Origin: a virus
DNA length: 35,353 nucleotides
UHGV virus genome: UHGV-0105470
Direction: 5' to 3' (one strand)
In this document: positions 16,726-20,538 of the stretch, one piece after another
Layout of the letters: each line of letters opens with the position of its first letter
Numbering within the stretch: position 1 is the first letter of the stretch
Notes under the pieces: generated by a model
Database searches by the model: none
Seen by the model: only the letters and a program-made list of their open reading frames with translations
Told to the model about the DNA's origin: nothing
Program-made: the position numbers and the translations under genes

Positions 16726-16977
16726 ATTAAATCTTTTTAGAGAACTTCTAAGAACCTAAGCAACAAGGTTCCACAACAAGCTGTAATAACCTTAGAAGCC
16801 CTCTAAAAAGACCTAATTTGGTCTTTGCATAGTCTTGTTTAATCCGGTGACTAGAACCTTTGGAGAGCTTGATATATCTCTTCTCCGTGACACCTACTAG
16901 GTGCTTTATCAGTGTACGACAATACACGAGGGATAAACCGAAAATGCGAGCAAGCATGGACGGTGTAAATCTTATTA

Positions 16978-17067
16978 GGCGGTAAGTAAAGGAGTCGAAC
17001 CCTCACCGTATCTCTACAGTGGCAACAGTTTTCAAGACTGTTTGGCTGCCATTAGCCGCTACCTACC
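16978..17067 (-). tRNA. tRNA-Ser (TGA), class II
   Basis: 90 nt; acceptor GGTAGGT/ACTTACC; anticodon stem ACAGT/ACTGT with loop CTTGAAA; long variable arm; T-loop TTCGACT; 3' CCA not fully encoded. Confidence 0.8.
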
Positions 17068-17080
17068 CCTAATAAGATTT

Positions 17081-17163
17081 TGGCATGGGACGGAGGAGTT
17101 GAACCCCTTTGAAACGGTTTTGGAGGCCGTTGCTCATGCCTTAGAGTCTTAACATCGTCCCAT
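17081..17163 (-). tRNA. tRNA-Trp (CCA)-like, atypical 83 nt
   Basis: Acceptor ATGGGAC/GTCCCAT, Trp-type anticodon loop CTCCAAA, T-loop TTCAACT, G73 CCA; 5' half about 7 nt longer than canonical. Confidence 0.5.
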
Positions 17164-17305
17164 ACTGTAATTCGAAGCTTACCGTATTTTCACAACACTG
17201 TAAAGCCCCTTCTCAGATTATTTACATGTTCTGGAAAACATGAGATACAGACCACCTCCTTACACGGAGACCCGATAAGGTCGTCTAAGCAATCTGCTAA
17301 CTATT

Positions 17306-17382
17306 TGGCACACCCTACAGGATTCGAACCTGTAACTCAATGATTAGAAGTCATTTGCTCTGTCCAGTTGAACTAAGGGTGC
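17306..17382 (-). tRNA. tRNA-Arg (TCT)
   Basis: Acceptor GCACCCT/AGGGTGT, D-stem GTTC/GAGC, anticodon stem AATGA/TCATT with loop CTTCTAA. Confidence 0.85.
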
Positions 17383-17629
17383 ATTAATCTTTAAAAACTC
17401 TCTTAGAAAGCCCTTAAAGATGCCCACCTTATTAATCATACCGTGGGCTAGTACGCCAAATTCTTTGATGAGGGATTGGAAGACCTCACTGGTGTTTAGC
17501 CTATCAAGCTACTGCCAGAAAAACATTGTCGTTTGCATTTATTTTAAATTTGCAAAATAGACGCTACGCAACGAAAACTAAGGTTACTATAAAGTGGTCA
17601 CATCTAAATGTCAACAACTTTATTGAAAT

Positions 17630-17705
17630 TGGTACTGGTAGGTGGAATCGAACCACCGATGTTCCCTTATCAGGGGAGTGTTATAACCTTCTTAACTATA
17701 CCAGC
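17630..17705 (-). tRNA. tRNA-Ile (GAT)
   Basis: Acceptor GCTGGTA/TACCAGT, anticodon loop CTGATAA, T-arm GGTGG-TTCGATT-CCACC. Confidence 0.85.
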
Positions 17706-17706
17706 T

Positions 17707-17782
17707 TGGAGGTTCAGATGGGATTCGAACCCACATTCATAGGGCTTATGAGACCCTTGCATTACCTTATCTGCGACTGAAC
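17707..17782 (-). tRNA. tRNA-Met (CAT); elongator, initiator or Ile2 not distinguishable
   Basis: Acceptor GGTTCAG/CTGAACC, anticodon stem AGGGT/GCCCT with loop CTCATAA. Confidence 0.8.
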
Positions 17783-17787
17783 CATAT

Positions 17788-17863
17788 TGGTAGAAGTGGA
17801 GGGATTCGAACCCATCGCCTGTCAGATTAAAAGTCTGCCGCATCACCATTCTGCTACACTTCC
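17788..17863 (-). tRNA. tRNA-Lys (TTT)
   Basis: Acceptor GGAAGTG/CACTTCT, anticodon loop CTTTTAA; paralogous in sequence to the Lys (CTT) gene. Confidence 0.8.
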
Positions 17864-17869
17864 ATTAAA

Positions 17870-18009
17870 TTATCTTTGTAGATAAGCTACCCAGACTTGC
17901 TTAAGGTCTGTAGCGATGTGCCTTGTTGGGTTTAAATCTAGAATTTACCCTTTCACCCTTTGTGGTCGCATACTCACAGGTAAGCTTAATAACTTATCTA
18001 CAAAGATAA
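17870..18009. repeat. 16-17 bp inverted repeat pair (ttatctttgtagataag / cttatctacaaagataa) flanking about 105 bp
   Basis: Exact reverse-complement 16-mers at about 17870-17886 and 17993-18009 inside the tRNA array spacer. Confidence 0.6.
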
Positions 18010-18060
18010 TTACCAGACCGTTGTTTATCATCTTAAGTGCTACCATTACACCAACTCGAC

Positions 18061-18140
18061 ATCTGCCGAGTGAAGGAATCGAACCTTCGCCTTTTCTTTA
18101 CCGGAGAAATAGATTGTTTAAGTTTTGCTGTAAACGGTCT
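18061..18140 (-). pseudogene. tRNA remnant (intact T-arm, no pairing acceptor stem)
   Basis: T-arm GAAGG-TTCGATT-CCTTC and stem-loop TTTCT-CCGGTAA-AGAAA, but no 5' strand complementary to ACTCGGC and C at loop position 33. Confidence 0.35.
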
Positions 18141-18154
18141 TCTGTAAATTTGTT

Positions 18155-18235
18155 GAGCCAGACCAAGTTTTAAATTTTCAAAATTAAATTGGCTTTAAAT
18201 TTTAAGTAACTTGCTGAATTTGGTCTTCTGCTCCT
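18155..18235 (-). ncRNA. conserved spacer stem element in tRNA array (one of four copies)
   Basis: CCAGACC(R) ... (Y)GGTCTTCTG ends with compensatory R/Y covariation across copies at 18011-18145, 18155-18235, 18558-18625, 18714-18796. Confidence 0.4.
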
Positions 18236-18548: not shown

Positions 18549-18628
18549 TTAATATATTGCCAGACCGTGTTTTTTTTTCTTTTATCCGCAAAAAGTAGTT
18601 TATTGCTGCATACGGTCTTCTGCAAAAT

Positions 18629-18705: not shown

Positions 18706-18796
18706 ATTCTTAATGACCAGACCAAATCTCTTCTTTGTCCGATTTAGCTTCAGATGAATAAGATTAAGTTTGCTGTAATTGGTCTTCTGTCAAAAC

Positions 18797-19123: not shown

Positions 19124-20538
19124 TTACCAGATATAACGGTCAACCATTACTGCTTTGAGCATTACGCTGATTGGGTCAAACTTCTCACCACCAAGCAGAG
19201 CTTTTAAAGTGGCTGGAGAGAACCCTGATACCATCGCTACACCATTATCCTTAACAGATACTTCGCAAGTACCATTACGGTTTGCTAAGTACCAGAATAC
19301 TAGTTGTGGCATTTCGTATCCAGCTTTTTTGTACTTACTCTGAATTGCTTCAAAGTTTGTACGACCATTTGCACCATCAACCTGATTAAACTCCATATCA
19401 GAGAAGATAATAAGCTTACTTGGCATATCTTTCTGAGTCAAGTTGTTTCTCTTACCTATCTCAAGAATACGGTCAAAGCTGCTTGTAAGTTAGTTGAACC
19501 ATATTCAACATGACGCATTACCTGACGATGACGGTTTCGTAAATCACCACTCAGTTCAATGAAATGAGGGTTTGTTGAATAGACCATTAACTCATCTTTA
19601 AAGCAACCTGTATTGCGTTCTGCTACATACAAGGCAAGTGATACACCAATATCAAGGGCAGTGATTGAACCAAGATTCACCCAAGACATTGAGCTTGAAA
19701 CATCAGTCATACACAAGATGTTCTCACCTTCTGCCATCCAGTTTGGTAGTGCTTTCCACTGCTCATTAGCAACATCTGCATTACCATGCTTGATAGACTT
19801 AATCACATCGTATGGGTAGACAGCACCAGCATTAATCTTAGCCTCACCTTTTGATAAGGACTCAATGTAAGCTTTGTAGCGTTCTCCATCTTTGCGGTTA
19901 AAGAGCTTTTGGTAACGTGCAGCAGCAAGAGACGGAATCTTACTGTAATCAATCTTACCAAACTCATTAGCAGAGATTTTTTGCTCAACCGTATCAGACA
20001 GTGCAGATAACAGTGTGCGGTATTCTTTCTCGCTTAAGTTTGCAAACTTACAGAAACGTTTTACAAACTGTTTGTGTCGTGGTTTTACTCGTGGTAACCA
20101 CTTGGCTGCTAAACCTGCTGTCTCAGGGTCTAGTAATGCTGCTTCTAAATGCTTAAAGGCATCTGTCTCAAAACGAGTACCTACGAAGATTTTGAAGTCA
20201 TCAAAACGACCAAGTTCTGCAATCTTATCCATAATACGAAGAAACTGTGTAGGCTCTAAAACTTTATCTTCGATTGCTTGAAGTAAAACAGTTCTGAAGG
20301 CTTTACGCTCACCCATACCTTCTCGTACATCTCGCATGTGAAGCAAAATACGAACTGCAACATCAACATCCTCACGCAAAGCTTTGTAGAACAAGTCTGG
20401 TAAGATTTCTACATTGCTACGGCTTGAACCAGCAGCTTTGTAAAAGTCCACAAGAGCAGACATTGATGAAGTATGGTTTACAGCACCATTTTCAGTTCGA
20501 CCTGCATGAAGGTGCGCATGTTTAAATAATTCGCTCAT
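19124..20538 (-). pseudogene. vWA-domain protein gene (Ro60/TROVE-like?) interrupted by a frameshift
   Basis: ORF 19456..20538 carries MIDAS motif DVSSS and ends ...GSTNLQAALTVFLR*; ORF 19124..19441 in a different frame carries the downstream vWA motif LIIFSDMEF; the two frames overlap at 19456-19492. Confidence 0.6.

What the first reader, a model, noticed from the sequence alone, without database searches (positions are those of the whole stretch)
17081..18140. Atypical 83-nt Trp-like tRNA and a tRNA remnant
17081-17163 has a perfect acceptor stem, a Trp-type anticodon loop CTCCAAA and a normal T-arm, but its 5' half is about 7 nt too long for a standard D-arm. About 18061-18140 retains a T-arm and a stem-loop but has no pairing acceptor stem. 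These may be degenerating genes or tRNA-derived RNAs with another role.
Basis: seen in the sequence. Interest (0 to 1): 0.4.

Follow-up and report, generated by a model that had tools for sequence, protein, structure and literature searches.

The report
Odd tRNA-Trp and phage Y RNAs
In a Felix O1-like phage, one flagged locus is a conserved but oddly shaped tryptophan tRNA that gene finders miss, and the other is part of a tRNA-mimicking "Y RNA", one of four encoded just downstream of the phage's Ro60-like anti-defence protein, whose RNA partners had only been guessed at.

Summary
The window comes from a Felixounavirus. Its minus-strand array holds 26 tRNAs for 19 amino acids and lacks only Trp.

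Locus 1 (17081-17163, minus) is a real, selected cloverleaf. Across 11 distinct sequences from about five phage lineages, 99.5% of cells pair and 8 of 19 pairs show compensatory changes. The CCA anticodon, G73 and the encoded CCA end are invariant. It also has an invariant 10-nt acceptor-to-D connector (normally 2 nt) and a never-paired 31·39 position, giving a 9-nt loop. ARAGORN, Rfam and GenBank records all miss it. The best reading is an atypical functional tRNA-Trp.

Locus 2 is not a remnant. It is the 5' two-thirds of a 138-nt RNA (18010-18147, minus). This RNA has a stem-bulge-stem closing a circularly permuted tRNA-like module (V hairpin, T arm, loop-capped acceptor hairpin, D arm), which is the YrlA Y-RNA layout. 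Three shorter paralogues lie nearby. Immediately upstream on the same strand is a gene whose predicted fold matches Ro60. It is the orthologue by synteny of Bas63 gp130 and is frameshifted in this window.

A model built from these RNAs finds homologues beside a Ro60-like gene in a distant phage, and Rfam's YrlA model weakly hits one of those.

Verdict: new variants of known kinds. RNA-protein binding and tRNA charging are untested.

The parts
17081..17163 (-). Atypical tRNA-Trp(CCA) gene, 83 nt: acceptor AUGGGAC/GUCCCAU, G73, encoded CCA
   Evidence: Sequence. Fold. Alignment A1 of 11 distinct sequences. Covariation: 99.5% paired, 8/19 pairs changed on both sides, slid controls 0. Not called by ARAGORN or Rfam tRNA.
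17147..17156 (-). Invariant 10-nt connector GAUGUUAAGA between the acceptor stem and the 3-bp D stem (canonical tRNAs have 2 nt)
   Evidence: Invariant in all 11 distinct sequences, including Yersinia and Pectobacterium phages that are only ~76-77% identical overall. A possible 3-bp pseudoknot with the 3' end of the D loop is always pairable but varies on one side only.
17113..17131 (-). Anticodon arm: 5-bp helix AACGG/CCGUU (standard positions 26-30/40-44) with a 9-nt loop CCUCCAAAA; anticodon CCA at 17121-17123
   Evidence: 4 of 5 pairs change on both sides. The 31·39 position is C·A or C·C in every sequence. UCCAA is invariant.
18010..18147 (-). Y RNA-like element A (YrlA-like), 138 nt: helix 1 UUAC/GUAA, internal loop AGA/G, helix 2 AGACCGU/ACGGUCU, UUACAGCAA motif, V hairpin, T arm, capped acceptor hairpin, D arm
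   Evidence: MFE fold. RNAalifold consensus on 14 distinct sequences. Pair counts 99.5%. CM R1 scores 164 bits here and 61-62 bits on distant homologues.
18054..18071 (-). Acceptor-like (AS) hairpin ACUCGGC-AGAU-GUCGAGU, 7 bp, closed by a loop, no CCA
   Evidence: 3 pairs with double-sided changes. There are three stem versions with different caps: AGAU (or AGGU/AGAG), UACG, and GCCAAACA.
18072..18088 (-). T arm GAAGG-UUCGAUU-CCUUC of element A
   Evidence: Invariant in 14 distinct sequences. Partial Rfam tRNA hit, 22-24 bits.
18037..18051 (-). D arm GUGU-AAUGGUA-GCAC of element A, preceded by UG in the position of tRNA residues 8-9
18093..18109 (-). V (anticodon-arm-like) hairpin UUUCU-CCGGUAA-AGAAA. 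The loop is not conserved, so it is not an anticodon.
   Evidence: This hairpin is the source of the 'tRNA-Thr-GGT' tRNAscan-SE annotation in MZ726792 and the tRNA-Thr in OQ174504.
18155..18233 (-). Y-like element B (79 nt): GAGC-AGA-AGACCAA...UUGGUCU-G-GCUC, AUUCAGCAA motif, no tRNA-like module
18557..18625 (-). Y-like element C (69 nt): UUGC-AGA-AGACCGU...ACGGUCU-G-GCAA
   Evidence: CM R1 45.3 bits, E 6e-8. Helix 1 is UUGC/GCAA or UUAC/GUAA in relatives, a compensatory change.
18714..18792 (-). Y-like element D (79 nt): UGAC-AGA-AGACCAA...UUGGUCU-G-GUCA
   Evidence: CM R1 44.3 bits, E 1e-7.
19124..20538 (-). Ro60-like gene (Pfam DUF2828 + DUF7788/vWA; orthologue of FelixO1 gp42 and, by synteny, of Bas63 gp130). 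In this window it is split into 360-aa and 105-aa ORFs by a 1-nt deletion in a T run near 19478.
   Evidence: AlphaFold model of a 97%-identical full-length relative: pLDDT 87.6, pTM 0.88. Foldseek top 12 PDB hits are all Ro60/Rsr/TROVE. Synteny with bas63_0130.

Best explanation
The two loci are two different, functional, tRNA-related genes in the minus-strand tRNA array of a Felix O1-like phage.

(1) 17081-17163 encodes the phage's tRNA-Trp. It keeps what bacterial TrpRS reads: the CCA anticodon, G73, and an A1-U72 or G1-C72 first pair. It has an encoded CCA end like its neighbours. I infer that RNase P and 3' trimming cut it from the array transcript, that it is charged with Trp, and that it is used in translation. 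Its shape is non-standard: an invariant 10-nt GAUGUUAAGA connector replaces the usual 2 nt before a 3-bp D stem, and the anticodon helix is shifted so that 31·39 never pairs, leaving a 9-nt loop. This explains why gene finders skip it. The role of the invariant insert is unknown. It may be a tertiary or recognition element, or a way to escape a host factor that targets tRNA-Trp.

(2) 18061-18140 is part of a 138-nt Y RNA-like RNA (18010-18147). Its 5' and 3' ends pair into helix 1 - AGA/G internal loop - helix 2, next to a conserved UUACAGCAA motif. The interior is a tRNA mimic in permuted order: V hairpin, T arm, loop-capped acceptor hairpin, D arm. This is the YrlA layout. Three shorter paralogues (B, C, D) share the closing module.

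All four lie 0.3-1.1 kb downstream, on the same strand, of a Ro60-fold gene. That gene is the orthologue by synteny of Bas63 gp130, which has been reported to counter the Ppl defence. I infer three further steps: tRNA-processing enzymes release the RNAs from the array transcript; the closing module binds the Ro60-like ring; and the tRNA-like module of element A recruits or occupies a tRNA-recognising partner, as proposed for bacterial Ro60-Y RNA particles that tether PNPase.

Shown here: the sequences, structures, covariation, paralogy, synteny and protein fold. Inferred: expression, processing, RNA-protein binding, aminoacylation and biological role.
For: Source and array. The window is 95-96% identical to Felixounavirus genomes. 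ARAGORN finds 26 tRNAs for 19 amino acids and no Trp. The FelixO1 genome paper never mentions Trp, and Bas63 annotates no tRNA-Trp.

Locus 1.
- Covariation in all four helices: 8 of 19 pairs change on both sides, 99.5% of cells pair, and slid controls give 0.
- The anticodon, G73, the CCA end and the 10-nt connector are invariant.
- It keeps the same position between tRNA-Arg(UCU) and tRNA-Ser(UGA) in Yersinia phage P778.
- The Trp identity rules come from the review PMC9976931.

Locus 2.
- The MFE fold is a permuted cloverleaf. RNAalifold independently gives helix 1, helix 2, T arm, AS hairpin and D arm.
- The AS hairpin covaries at 3 pairs.
- There are four copies of CAGAAGACCNNNUNCAGCAA against 0.04 expected by chance.
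- Helix 1 differs but stays paired between paralogues and covaries between orthologues, and P778 has a fully compensated helix 2, GGACUGU/ACAGUCC.
- The YrlA module order and the 'within 4 kb, same strand as Ro60' rule are from Chen et al. 2014.

Partner gene. It is intact at 471 aa in relatives. The AlphaFold model has pLDDT 87.6. The top 12 PDB matches are Ro60/Rsr/TROVE, with E down to 9.5e-8 and TM up to 0.65. The PhageMaP preprint reports that Bas63 gp130 is Ro60-like and counters Ppl, and it only speculates about Y RNAs.

Generality. CM R1, built only from Ounavirinae copies, finds full-length homologues (61-62 bits, E about 1e-11) in the 690 nt between a 49%-identical Ro60-like gene and a tRNA array in a distant 143-kb contig. 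Rfam YrlA hits one of these at 40.9 bits, E 1.5e-7.
Against: There is no expression, processing, binding or charging data for either RNA.

Locus 1. No tool calls it a tRNA. A 10-nt connector is absent from the review of non-canonical tRNAs that I read, where known deviations shorten the connector to 1 or 0 nt. The residue after the acceptor stem is G, not the near-universal U8. A 9-nt anticodon loop could impair or alter decoding, so it may be charged but not used normally, or it may be a mimic.

Locus 2. The Rfam YrlA model gives no hit on the window copy even at E<=10. The proposed Ro-binding motif GNCGAAN0-1G is absent; the sequence here is RCAGAAGAC. The T arm, D arm and closing stems are invariant among orthologues of element A, so their support comes from paralogues and distant homologues only.

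Partner protein. It has no sequence-level similarity to Ro60 or to Pfam TROVE, and its gene is frameshifted in this window. CM R1 found nothing near the DUF2828 gene of Vibrio phage phi-pp2, or in the part of Arno18 that I fetched.
Confidence: 0.68

Rival explanations
1. Elements A-D are not Ro60 partners. They are processing or punctuation signals of the polycistronic tRNA transcript, such as stable hairpins or RNase III/E/P sites that define tRNA ends or protect spacers. On this view the tRNA-like module of A serves only as an extra RNase P site, and the adjacency to the Ro60-like gene is incidental.
For: All four elements sit in spacers between tRNAs, which fits release by tRNA processing. 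Other spacers are also closed by long inverted repeats, and one such repeat flanks tRNA-Ser. The GNCGAA motif is absent and Rfam YrlA gives no hit. M. smegmatis YrlA is itself an RNase P substrate.
Against: The same RNA family recurs next to a Ro60-like gene, and before the first tRNA, in a phage whose Ro60-like protein is only 49% identical. The internal loop and the UUACAGCAA motif are invariant while the flanking helices covary, which is typical of a protein-binding site. A processing signal would not need intact D and T arms with a capped acceptor stem. Most tRNA junctions in the array have no such element.
Confidence: 0.15
2. Locus 1 is not a decoding tRNA. It is a tRNA-Trp mimic, for example a decoy for a host tRNA-Trp-targeting nuclease or another ligand of the Ro60-like particle. 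Alternatively it is charged but decodes abnormally (frameshift or near-cognate reading) because of its 9-nt loop.
For: It has a 10-nt invariant connector, lacks U8, never pairs at 31·39 and has a 9-nt loop. No tRNA model accepts it. The PhageMaP authors suspected that some 'tRNAs' of this array are Y RNAs. The review I read notes that a natural enlarged (8-nt) anticodon loop accompanies codon reassignment.
Against: Free 5' and 3' ends with an encoded G73-CCA, an invariant U33-CCA-A37 core, and the fact that Trp is the only amino acid missing from the array all fit an aminoacylated adaptor. A mimic would not need to preserve an anticodon. A 31·39 mismatch on its own is tolerable in tRNAs (my own knowledge).
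Confidence: 0.2
3. Both loci are decaying tRNA pseudogenes or remnants.
For: Both fail standard tRNA detection. Elements B-D look like element A with the tRNA-like core deleted.
Against: Both show compensatory substitutions and invariant functional positions across genera, and syntenic conservation as far as Yersinia phage P778. Pseudogenes would accumulate stem-breaking changes, yet 99.5% of cells remain paired.
Confidence: 0.03
4. Locus 2 is a genuine circularly permuted or intron-containing tRNA gene that matures into tRNA-Thr(GGU), as tRNAscan-SE-based annotations imply.
For: MZ726792 annotates a 129-nt tRNA-Thr-GGT here and OQ174504 a tRNA-Thr. The Mooglevirus copies have G-CCA right after the acceptor 3' strand.
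Against: The 'anticodon' loop is not conserved: it reads CCGGUAA, CUGGUAA, a 6-nt CGGUAA, CUAUGAA, and ACUUUCA or AUUUUCA. The acceptor cap varies and lacks CCA in Felixounavirus, Suspvirus and Sf13-type copies. In some lineages the stem is 6 bp with a UACG tetraloop. As far as I know, no BHB splicing or ligation pathway operates in these hosts. The array already has tRNA-Thr(UGU).
Confidence: 0.03

Closest known systems
YrlA-type bacterial and phage Y RNAs (Rfam RF02553; Chen et al. 2014, PMC4201824)
   Same: The 5' and 3' ends pair into a bulged stem. The interior is a tRNA mimic in the order V hairpin, T arm, loop-capped acceptor-like hairpin, D arm. There are several paralogous Y RNAs per genome, only some with the tRNA-like module. 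They are encoded within 4 kb of, and on the same strand as, a Ro60-type gene. A 7-bp acceptor hairpin also occurs in M. smegmatis YrlA.
   Different: The GNCGAAN0-1G / CGAA motif is absent. The conserved elements here are an AGA/G internal loop and UUACAGCAA. RF02553 gives no hit on the window copy, and a distant homologue scores only 40.9 bits against a gathering score of 69. The genes are interspersed in a tRNA array. The partner protein belongs to Pfam DUF2828/DUF7788, not TROVE.
Ro60 / Rsr / TROVE proteins, including Thermus phage phiLo phiRo60 with Yrl1/Yrl2 (PMC12135203) and Bas63 gp130 (bioRxiv 10.1101/2024.10.10.617714)
   Same: The predicted alpha-helical-repeat plus vWA fold matches Ro60 over its full length. 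The gene is phage-encoded and next to candidate Y RNAs. The Bas63 orthologue was already called Ro60-like and shown to be an anti-Ppl counter-defence gene.
   Different: There is no detectable sequence similarity to Ro60. The protein is shorter (471 aa against about 500-540). For Bas63 the RNA partners were only guessed to hide among the annotated tRNAs. The candidates found here lie in unannotated spacers.
Canonical bacterial tRNA-Trp (E. coli trpT type)
   Same: CCA anticodon, G73, A1-U72, anticodon loop CUCCAAA, GAGC 3' D-stem strand, 5-nt variable loop, UUCRAnU T loop and an encoded CCA. The comparison with the E. coli sequence is from memory. The identity rules are from PMC9976931.
   Different: The connector is 10 nt instead of U8-N9. 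The D stem is 3 bp. Position 31·39 is C·A or C·C instead of U-A, and 26-44 forms a Watson-Crick pair. The first T-stem pair is A·C.
Circularly permuted tRNA genes (Cyanidioschyzon merolae) and two-piece (permuted) tmRNA genes
   Same: In gene order the T arm and acceptor 3' strand come before the acceptor 5' strand and D arm.
   Different: There is no evidence for circularisation or cleavage into a mature adaptor. There is no conserved anticodon, no G3·U70 and no conserved CCA. The element is closed by a long protein-site-like stem.

Membership tests
tRNA (Rfam RF00005 / ARAGORN cloverleaf) - locus 1 | Scores above the family threshold or is called by a tRNA finder | tested here: not met
   No RF00005 hit even at E<=10. 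The best hit is tRNA-Sec at 23 bits against a gathering score of 47. ARAGORN is silent at default settings and at thresholds of 90, 80 and 70%.
tRNA - locus 1 | Four-helix cloverleaf maintained by selection | tested here: met
   99.5% paired, 8/19 pairs with double-sided changes, at least one in each helix, slid controls 0.
tRNA - locus 1 | 2-nt connector (U8, N9), 3-4-bp D stem, 7-11-nt D loop | tested here: not met
   10-nt invariant connector GAUGUUAAGA; 3-bp D stem CUC/GAG covarying with CAC/GUG; 8-10-nt loop with GG.
tRNA - locus 1 | 5-bp anticodon stem (27-31/39-43) with a 7-nt loop | tested here: not met
   Position 31·39 is C·A or C·C in all 11 sequences, while 26-44 is a covarying Watson-Crick pair. 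The result is a 5-bp helix with a 9-nt loop.
tRNA-Trp identity (bacterial TrpRS) | C34 C35 A36, G73, first acceptor pair | tested here: met
   CCA and G73 are invariant. The first pair is A1-U72, G1·U72 or G1-C72. Rules from PMC9976931. This is sequence-level only.
tRNA-Trp | Aminoacylation with Trp and use on the ribosome | not testable with these tools
   Needs acid-gel Northern blots, in vitro charging or genetics.
YrlA / bacterial Y RNA - locus 2 | Encoded within ~4 kb of a Ro60 orthologue, same strand | tested here: met
   Elements D, C, B and A begin 0.33, 0.50, 0.89 and 0.98 kb downstream of the Ro60-fold gene end (19124), all on the minus strand. The same arrangement is seen in L109.
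YrlA / bacterial Y RNA - locus 2 | 5' and 3' ends form a bulged stem | tested here: met
   Helix 1 (4 bp) - AGA/G - helix 2 (7 bp). Helix 1 covaries between paralogues and orthologues, and helix 2 is fully compensated in P778.
YrlA / bacterial Y RNA - locus 2 | tRNA-like domain in the order V, T, AS, D | tested here: met
   The AS hairpin has 3 covarying pairs. The T loop UUCGAUU and D loop AAUGGUA carry the G18G19/T54-C56-type residues.
YrlA / bacterial Y RNA - locus 2 | GNCGAAN0-1G (CGAA) motif near the 5' end | tested here: not met
   The 5' strand reads (U/G)(U/A/G)(A/G)C-AGA-AGACC. P778 has GC-ACA-GGACU.
YrlA (Rfam RF02553) | Covariance-model score at or above 69 bits | tested here: not met
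   No hit at E<=10 on 18000-18150. The distant homologue L109 7707-7815 scores 40.9 bits, E 1.5e-7, full length.
Y RNA | Physical binding to the Ro60-type protein | not testable with these tools
   Needs RIP/CLIP or EMSA with the gp130 orthologue.
Ro60 / TROVE protein (partner gene 19124-20538) | Alpha-helical-repeat ring plus vWA fold | tested here: met
   AlphaFold pLDDT 87.6, pTM 0.88. The Foldseek top 12 PDB hits are all Ro60/Rsr/TROVE, E 1e-7 to 3e-6, and the next hits are isolated vWA domains at E>4e-3.
Ro60 / TROVE protein | Sequence-profile membership (Pfam TROVE, or HMMER sequence/profile match to solved Ro60 chains in the PDB) | tested here: not met
   Only DUF2828 and DUF7788 hit. 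No Ro60 hit by phmmer or hmmsearch against the PDB. PHROG 850 is named 'RNA-binding protein'.
Circularly permuted tRNA gene | Conserved anticodon and maturation to an aminoacylatable tRNA | tested here: not met
   The loop of the V hairpin and the acceptor cap vary between lineages, and there is no conserved CCA.

The most novel reading that the evidence does not exclude
The tRNA array of Felix O1-like phages may be an integrated RNA toolkit for taking over or protecting translation. It would comprise a divergent Ro60-like ring (DUF2828, >2,000 homologues found by one search) loaded with a new Y RNA class that shares UUACAGCAA, a structurally re-engineered tRNA-Trp, and a tmRNA-like tag RNA. 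In this reading the invariant insert and 9-nt loop of the tRNA-Trp either make it resistant to a host tRNA-targeting defence or change its decoding. The Ro60-like/Y RNP would guard, repair or gate phage tRNAs, and that activity would be what defeats the Ppl system.
Probability: 0.12. Interest if true: 0.85.

Novelty: new variant of a known kind. Interest (0 to 1): 0.62.

Why it matters
Bas63 gp130, a Ro60-like protein of this phage genus, was reported to neutralise the Ppl defence system, but its RNA partners were unknown. They were guessed to be among the annotated tRNAs. This analysis gives exact coordinates, structures and conserved motifs for four candidate Y RNAs in unannotated spacers. 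It also shows the same RNA-protein pairing in a distant phage. Binding, structural and counter-defence experiments can therefore be designed directly.

The analysis also links the large DUF2828/DUF7788 family to Ro60 and to a Y RNA class that the current Rfam model misses.

Separately, it shows that these phages encode tRNAs for all 20 amino acids. The tRNA-Trp has a 10-nt acceptor-D connector, which is not among the non-canonical tRNAs in the review I read. That makes it relevant both to tRNA structural limits and to phage genome annotation, where this gene is uniformly absent and the Y RNA is sometimes mis-called tRNA-Thr or covered by small 'hypothetical protein' ORFs.

Tried and rejected
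- Relaxed ARAGORN runs (90, 80 and 70% thresholds, intron mode) never gave tRNA-Trp. They gave only spurious calls such as a 96-nt 'tRNA-Pyl' and intron-containing chimeras.
- An alternative D stem UGUU/AGCA for locus 1 is rejected. It loses a pair in Mooglevirus, whereas CUC/GAG covaries with CAC/GUG.
- An 8/4 tRNA-Sec-like fold was considered because of the tRNA-Sec hit, but the anticodon is CCA and there is no long variable arm.
- A 3-bp pseudoknot between the connector and the D loop is always pairable but shows only one-sided changes, so it remains undecided.
- The inner helix CUUA/UAAG in the MFE fold of element A is not conserved and was dropped.
- Scanning IMG/VR for the 15-mer GGGACGATGTTAAGA gave mostly chance hits in coding DNA (a WDDVK peptide). 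The real homologues are restricted to Ounavirinae-like phages.
- Sequence and profile searches of the Ro60-like protein against the PDB found nothing. Only the fold comparison worked.
- A literature search for DUF2828 found only incidental mentions.
- CM R1 found no element near the DUF2828 gene of Vibrio phage phi-pp2, or in the part of Arno18 that I fetched. The association is therefore not shown to be universal.
- A K-turn reading of the AGA/G loop was rejected by inspection, because there are no tandem G·A pairs.
- A tmRNA tRNA-like-domain reading of element A was rejected, because there is no G3·U70 and no conserved CCA.
Full report
SOURCE AND CONTEXT. The window (35,353 nt, 38.8% G+C) is 95-96% identical over the tested 2 kb to many Felixounavirus genomes, that is, FelixO1-like myophages of E. 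coli, Salmonella and Shigella. ARAGORN finds 26 tRNA genes on the minus strand between 14050 and 18958, and Rfam confirms 24 of them at the gathering threshold. Together they cover 19 amino acids; only Trp is missing. The neighbour checked (tRNA-Arg, 17306-17382) encodes its CCA end, and ARAGORN spans generally run 3 nt past the Rfam spans at the 3' end.

LOCUS 1, 17081-17163 (MINUS STRAND). The RNA reads AUGGGAC-GAUGUUAAGA-CUC-UAAGGCAU-GAG-C-AACGG-CCUCCAAAA-CCGUU-UCAAA-GGGG-UUCAACU-CCUC-C-GUCCCAU-G-CCA. ARAGORN does not call it at default or relaxed thresholds. The Rfam tRNA model gives nothing, and tRNA-Sec reaches only 23 bits.

None of the GenBank records I inspected annotates a tRNA here. 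The FelixO1 genome paper lists 22 tRNAs and never mentions Trp.

BLAST finds the element in 236 phage records. After collapsing, there are 11 distinct sequences from Felixounavirus, Suspvirus, Mooglevirus, Yersinia phage P778 and Pectobacterium phage Arno18. On the cloverleaf, 99.5% of cells are standard pairs and 8 of 19 pairs show changes on both sides. Each of the four helices has at least one such pair. No shuffle reaches the observed covariation, and structures slid by 1-3 columns show none. Examples:
- acceptor pairs 1-72 and 2-71: AU/UA to GC/CG
- D stem: CUC/GAG to CAC/GUG
- anticodon helix: AACGG/CCGUU to GUAAG/CUUAC and GUAGG/CCUAC
- T stem: G-C to U-A

The invariant features are the U-CCA-A core of the anticodon loop, G73, the CCA end and the whole connector GAUGUUAAGA. 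In bacteria the Trp identity set is the anticodon, the G73 discriminator and the first acceptor pair, and A1-U72 is the E. coli tRNA-Trp pair (review PMC9976931). The element keeps its place between tRNA-Arg(UCU) and tRNA-Ser(UGA) in P778.

Two features are outside the tRNA norm. First, the connector is 10 nt rather than 2. The review of non-canonical tRNAs that I read lists only shortened connectors. Second, 31·39 is C·A or C·C in every sequence while 26-44 is a covarying Watson-Crick pair, so the helix is shifted and the loop has 9 nt. Three connector bases (AUG) can always pair with the 3' end of the D loop (CAU or UGU). That would form a pseudoknot, but only one-sided changes are seen, so it stays a hint.

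I conclude that this is a selected gene. It is most likely the phage's tRNA-Trp, with an unusual D-side architecture. Charging and decoding are inferred, not shown.

LOCUS 2, 18061-18140. On the minus strand this stretch holds a 5' stem strand, a 5-bp hairpin with a 7-nt loop (18093-18109), a perfect T arm (18072-18088) and ACUCGGC. The partner GUCGAGU follows after a 4-nt cap at 18054-18060. Next come UG and a D arm, GUGU-AAUGGUA-GCAC (18037-18051). Finally the 3' strand pairs with the 5' end. The element therefore spans 18010-18147 and is a cloverleaf in circularly permuted order.

It occurs in 252 phage records, giving 14 distinct sequences. RNAalifold independently predicts five helices: helix 1 (UUAC/GUAA), helix 2 (AGACCGU/ACGGUCU), the T arm, the capped acceptor hairpin and the D arm. 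Pair counts give 99.5% paired, with three acceptor-hairpin pairs changed on both sides (U-A, A-U and C-G at one position). The caps are AGAU, UACG or GCCAAACA.

The T arm, D arm and closing helices do not vary among these orthologues, so those counts say nothing about them. The loop of the first hairpin varies (CCGGUAA, CUGGUAA, a 6-nt version, CUAUGAA, ACUUUCA), so it is not an anticodon. The 'tRNA-Thr-GGT' given by tRNAscan-SE in two records is an artefact.

A FAMILY OF FOUR. The 5' motif CAGAAGACCNNNUNCAGCAA occurs four times on the minus strand, starting at 18144, 18230, 18622 and 18789, against 0.04 expected by chance. Each copy is the 5' side of a stem - internal loop - stem module of the form h1-AGA-AGACCNN...NNGGUCU-G-h1'. 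Helix 1 is UUAC/GUAA in A, GAGC/GCUC in B, UUGC/GCAA in C and UGAC/GUCA in D.

Across relatives, helix 1 of C switches between UUGC/GCAA and UUAC/GUAA. Single changes elsewhere give G·U pairs. In P778 the module reads GC-ACA-GGACUGU...ACAGUCC-A-GC, with helix 2 fully compensated. Only element A carries the tRNA-like core. B, C and D are 69-79 nt.

THE NEIGHBOURING GENE. Immediately upstream on the same strand, an ORF at 19456-20538 hits Pfam DUF2828 and DUF7788. A 105-aa ORF at 19124-19441 continues the vWA-like part. In phage dune and in FelixO1 the gene is intact at 471 aa and is named 'vWFA protein' or 'RNA-binding protein'. It falls in PHROG 850, 'RNA-binding protein'. The window copy has a 1-nt deletion in a T run near 19478, and I cannot tell whether this is real or a sequencing error.

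Sequence and profile searches find no Ro60 in the PDB. An AlphaFold model of a 97%-identical full-length relative was built on 34 homologues and has pLDDT 87.6 and pTM 0.88. Its 12 best Foldseek matches in the PDB are all Ro60/Rsr/TROVE structures. They include Xenopus and human Ro60, D. radiodurans Rsr and Thermus phage phiLo Ro60, with E from 9.5e-8 to 2.8e-6, probability 1.00, full-length alignment and TM up to 0.65. The next matches are isolated vWA domains at E above 4e-3.

In Bas63 (phage JohannRWettstein) the first tRNA of the array is bas63_0131, so the gene upstream is g130. The PhageMaP preprint reports that gp130 is structurally like Ro60 and counters the Ppl defence. [quoted passage not shown] I found no later paper.

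COMPARISON WITH Y RNAs. Chen et al. 2014 describe YrlA RNAs as follows: a 5' strand carrying GNCGAAN0-1G, a less conserved V hairpin, a T hairpin, a non-conserved acceptor-like (AS) hairpin, a D hairpin and a 3' strand. They are encoded within 4 kb of Ro60 and on the same strand, and they occur in bacteria and in 22 phages. M. smegmatis YrlA, which has a 7-bp AS stem, is cut by RNase P and receives CCA. Thermus phage phiLo Ro60 binds two adjacent Y-like RNAs and host PNPase.

Element A has this module order and genomic context. It lacks the CGAA motif, and the Rfam YrlA model does not hit it even at E<=10.

To test homology more widely, I built a covariance model (R1) from the 14 Ounavirinae sequences only. 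The search results were:
- element A: 164 bits
- paralogues C and D: about 45 bits
- two P778 elements: about 30 bits, E about 2e-4
- full-length hits of 61-62 bits (E about 1e-11) and 25.8 bits in a 143-kb metagenomic phage contig (L109) and a second contig (L110)

In L109 and L110 these hits lie in the 690 nt between a 49%-identical DUF2828 gene and the first tRNA of an array on the same strand. Those copies show T arm, 7-bp capped hairpin, UA, then a canonical D arm (GCUCAGUUUGGUAGAGC), and they share UUACAGCAA. Rfam's YrlA model hits one of them full-length at 40.9 bits, E 1.5e-7, which is below the gathering score of 69. The window element is thus linked to YrlA through an intermediate. 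By Rfam's criterion it is not itself a member.

MECHANISM (INFERRED). The array transcript is cut by the host tRNA-processing enzymes, which frees the spacer RNAs. Their paired ends would make them stable. The invariant AGA/G loop and UUACAGCAA, flanked by covarying helices, are the likely protein-contact site for the Ro60-like ring. The tRNA-like module of A would engage a tRNA-recognising partner. The RNP would then act in RNA turnover or protection during infection, and this may underlie the reported anti-Ppl effect. None of these steps is shown here.

RIVALS. I considered four rivals and score them separately: spacer-processing signals unrelated to Ro60, a non-decoding tRNA-Trp mimic, pseudogenes, and a true permuted tRNA-Thr. 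The last two are contradicted by the conservation pattern.

LIMITS. R1 found nothing near the DUF2828 gene of Vibrio phage phi-pp2 or in the part of Arno18 that I fetched. The V hairpin was not tested formally, because the alignment is out of register between lineages. E-values from R1 are rough.

NOVELTY AND SCORE. Y RNAs next to phage Ro60 genes are a known kind, and the Ro60-like nature of gp130 has been published as a preprint. Four things are new here:
- the identification, structure and family of the RNAs
- their difference from YrlA in motif, in tRNA-array setting and in having a DUF2828 partner
- their recurrence in a distant phage
- a tRNA-Trp with a 10-nt connector that completes a 20-amino-acid set

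I rate this as a new variant of a known kind, with interest 0.62.

Noticed in passing
window 17501-17536 (minus), with a promoter-like site at 17586-17614 (minus): The spacer between tRNA-Ile and tRNA-Arg(UCU) carries TTGACA-N17-TATAGT and then a tmRNA-like tag frame, GCA AAC GAC AAU GUU UUU CUG GCA GUA GCU UGA UAG (ANDNVFLAVA**). The frame has no in-frame start codon. From memory, its first 9 nt and its length of 10 codons match the E. coli ssrA tag. It is conserved in three genera, with only a synonymous change, a stop-to-stop change and one V-to-A change. Rfam tmRNA_permuted scores 29 bits (E 0.0016) but borrows the neighbouring tRNA-Ile as its tRNA-like domain; I found no tRNA-like domain of its own. 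The Moogle and Mushroom genome announcements mention a tmRNA/ssrA; I read the Moogle one, which reports an ARAGORN call.
   Followed up: partly
L111 3001-3120 (E. coli NZ_AP022095.1 1503135-1503254): About 120 nt of that tmRNA-like spacer (query positions 85-209) match at about 81% identity in 339 E. coli genomes, mostly on plasmids. In the one case I inspected, the match lies in an unannotated gap of a lambdoid prophage between the antiterminator and holin genes.
   Followed up: partly
window 18561-18617 and 18014-18139; L109 7534-7592 and 7619-7670: The short stem-bulge-stem RNAs repeatedly get weak hits to Rfam Dicty_Class_I_RNA (13-27 bits, best E 0.01). Both have a terminal stem followed by the motif UUACAGCAA and end in ..CUG. 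I did not resolve whether this is chance or a real link.
   Followed up: no
window 16967-16979 and 17068-17080: A perfect 13-nt inverted repeat (AAATCTTATTAGG / CCTAATAAGATTT) flanks and slightly overlaps tRNA-Ser(UGA). It would extend the acceptor stem in the precursor. The upstream arm begins right after the CCA of the tRNA-Trp.
   Followed up: no
window 17868-18011 and 16726-16817: Two other array spacers are closed by long inverted repeats: 22 nt at 95% complementarity around a 100-nt interior, directly downstream of Y-like element A, and 27 nt at 85%. These may be further structured spacer RNAs.
   Followed up: no
L008 (Yersinia phage P778) 917-1607 and 727-832: P778 has two more orphan T arms. 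One RNA has a 7-bp acceptor stem with free ends (GCGGGUG/CACCUGC), a D arm, a T arm and a ~110-nt extended arm in place of the anticodon arm. It also has a Y-like element with a T arm but a degenerate AS/D region. The GenBank record annotates none of the 22 tRNAs that ARAGORN finds and instead lists small ORFs.
   Followed up: partly
window ~19478 (gene 19124-20538, minus): The Ro60-like gene carries a 1-nt deletion in a TTTT run relative to dune and FelixO1. Truncated versions (218, 244, 333 and 423 aa) also occur among close homologues, including two named phage isolates (Barry, EcSzw_1). This suggests the gene is often disrupted or mis-sequenced.
   Followed up: partly
L112 949-1223 (Bas63), L002 1376-1504 (ASO1B): Annotation artefacts lie over the Y-like RNAs. 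In Bas63, two opposite-strand 'hypothetical protein' ORFs (bas63_0137 and bas63_0138) lie in the spacer that holds them. ASO1B and REP5 annotate a 129-nt 'tRNA-Thr-GGT' there.
   Followed up: yes
GU169904.1 (Staphylococcus phage SA1) 58766-59911: A 147-kb record labelled as a Staphylococcus phage contains FelixO1-like tRNA-array sequence at 96-98% identity to the window, and a Campylobacter-labelled record also matches. These are probably chimeric or mislabelled records.
   Followed up: no
L109 11393-12652: The distant phage contig that carries the Ro60-like gene, the Y-like RNAs and the tRNA array also encodes an OrfB_IS605/Cas12f-like (TnpB-type) protein about 1 kb beyond the array.
   Followed up: no
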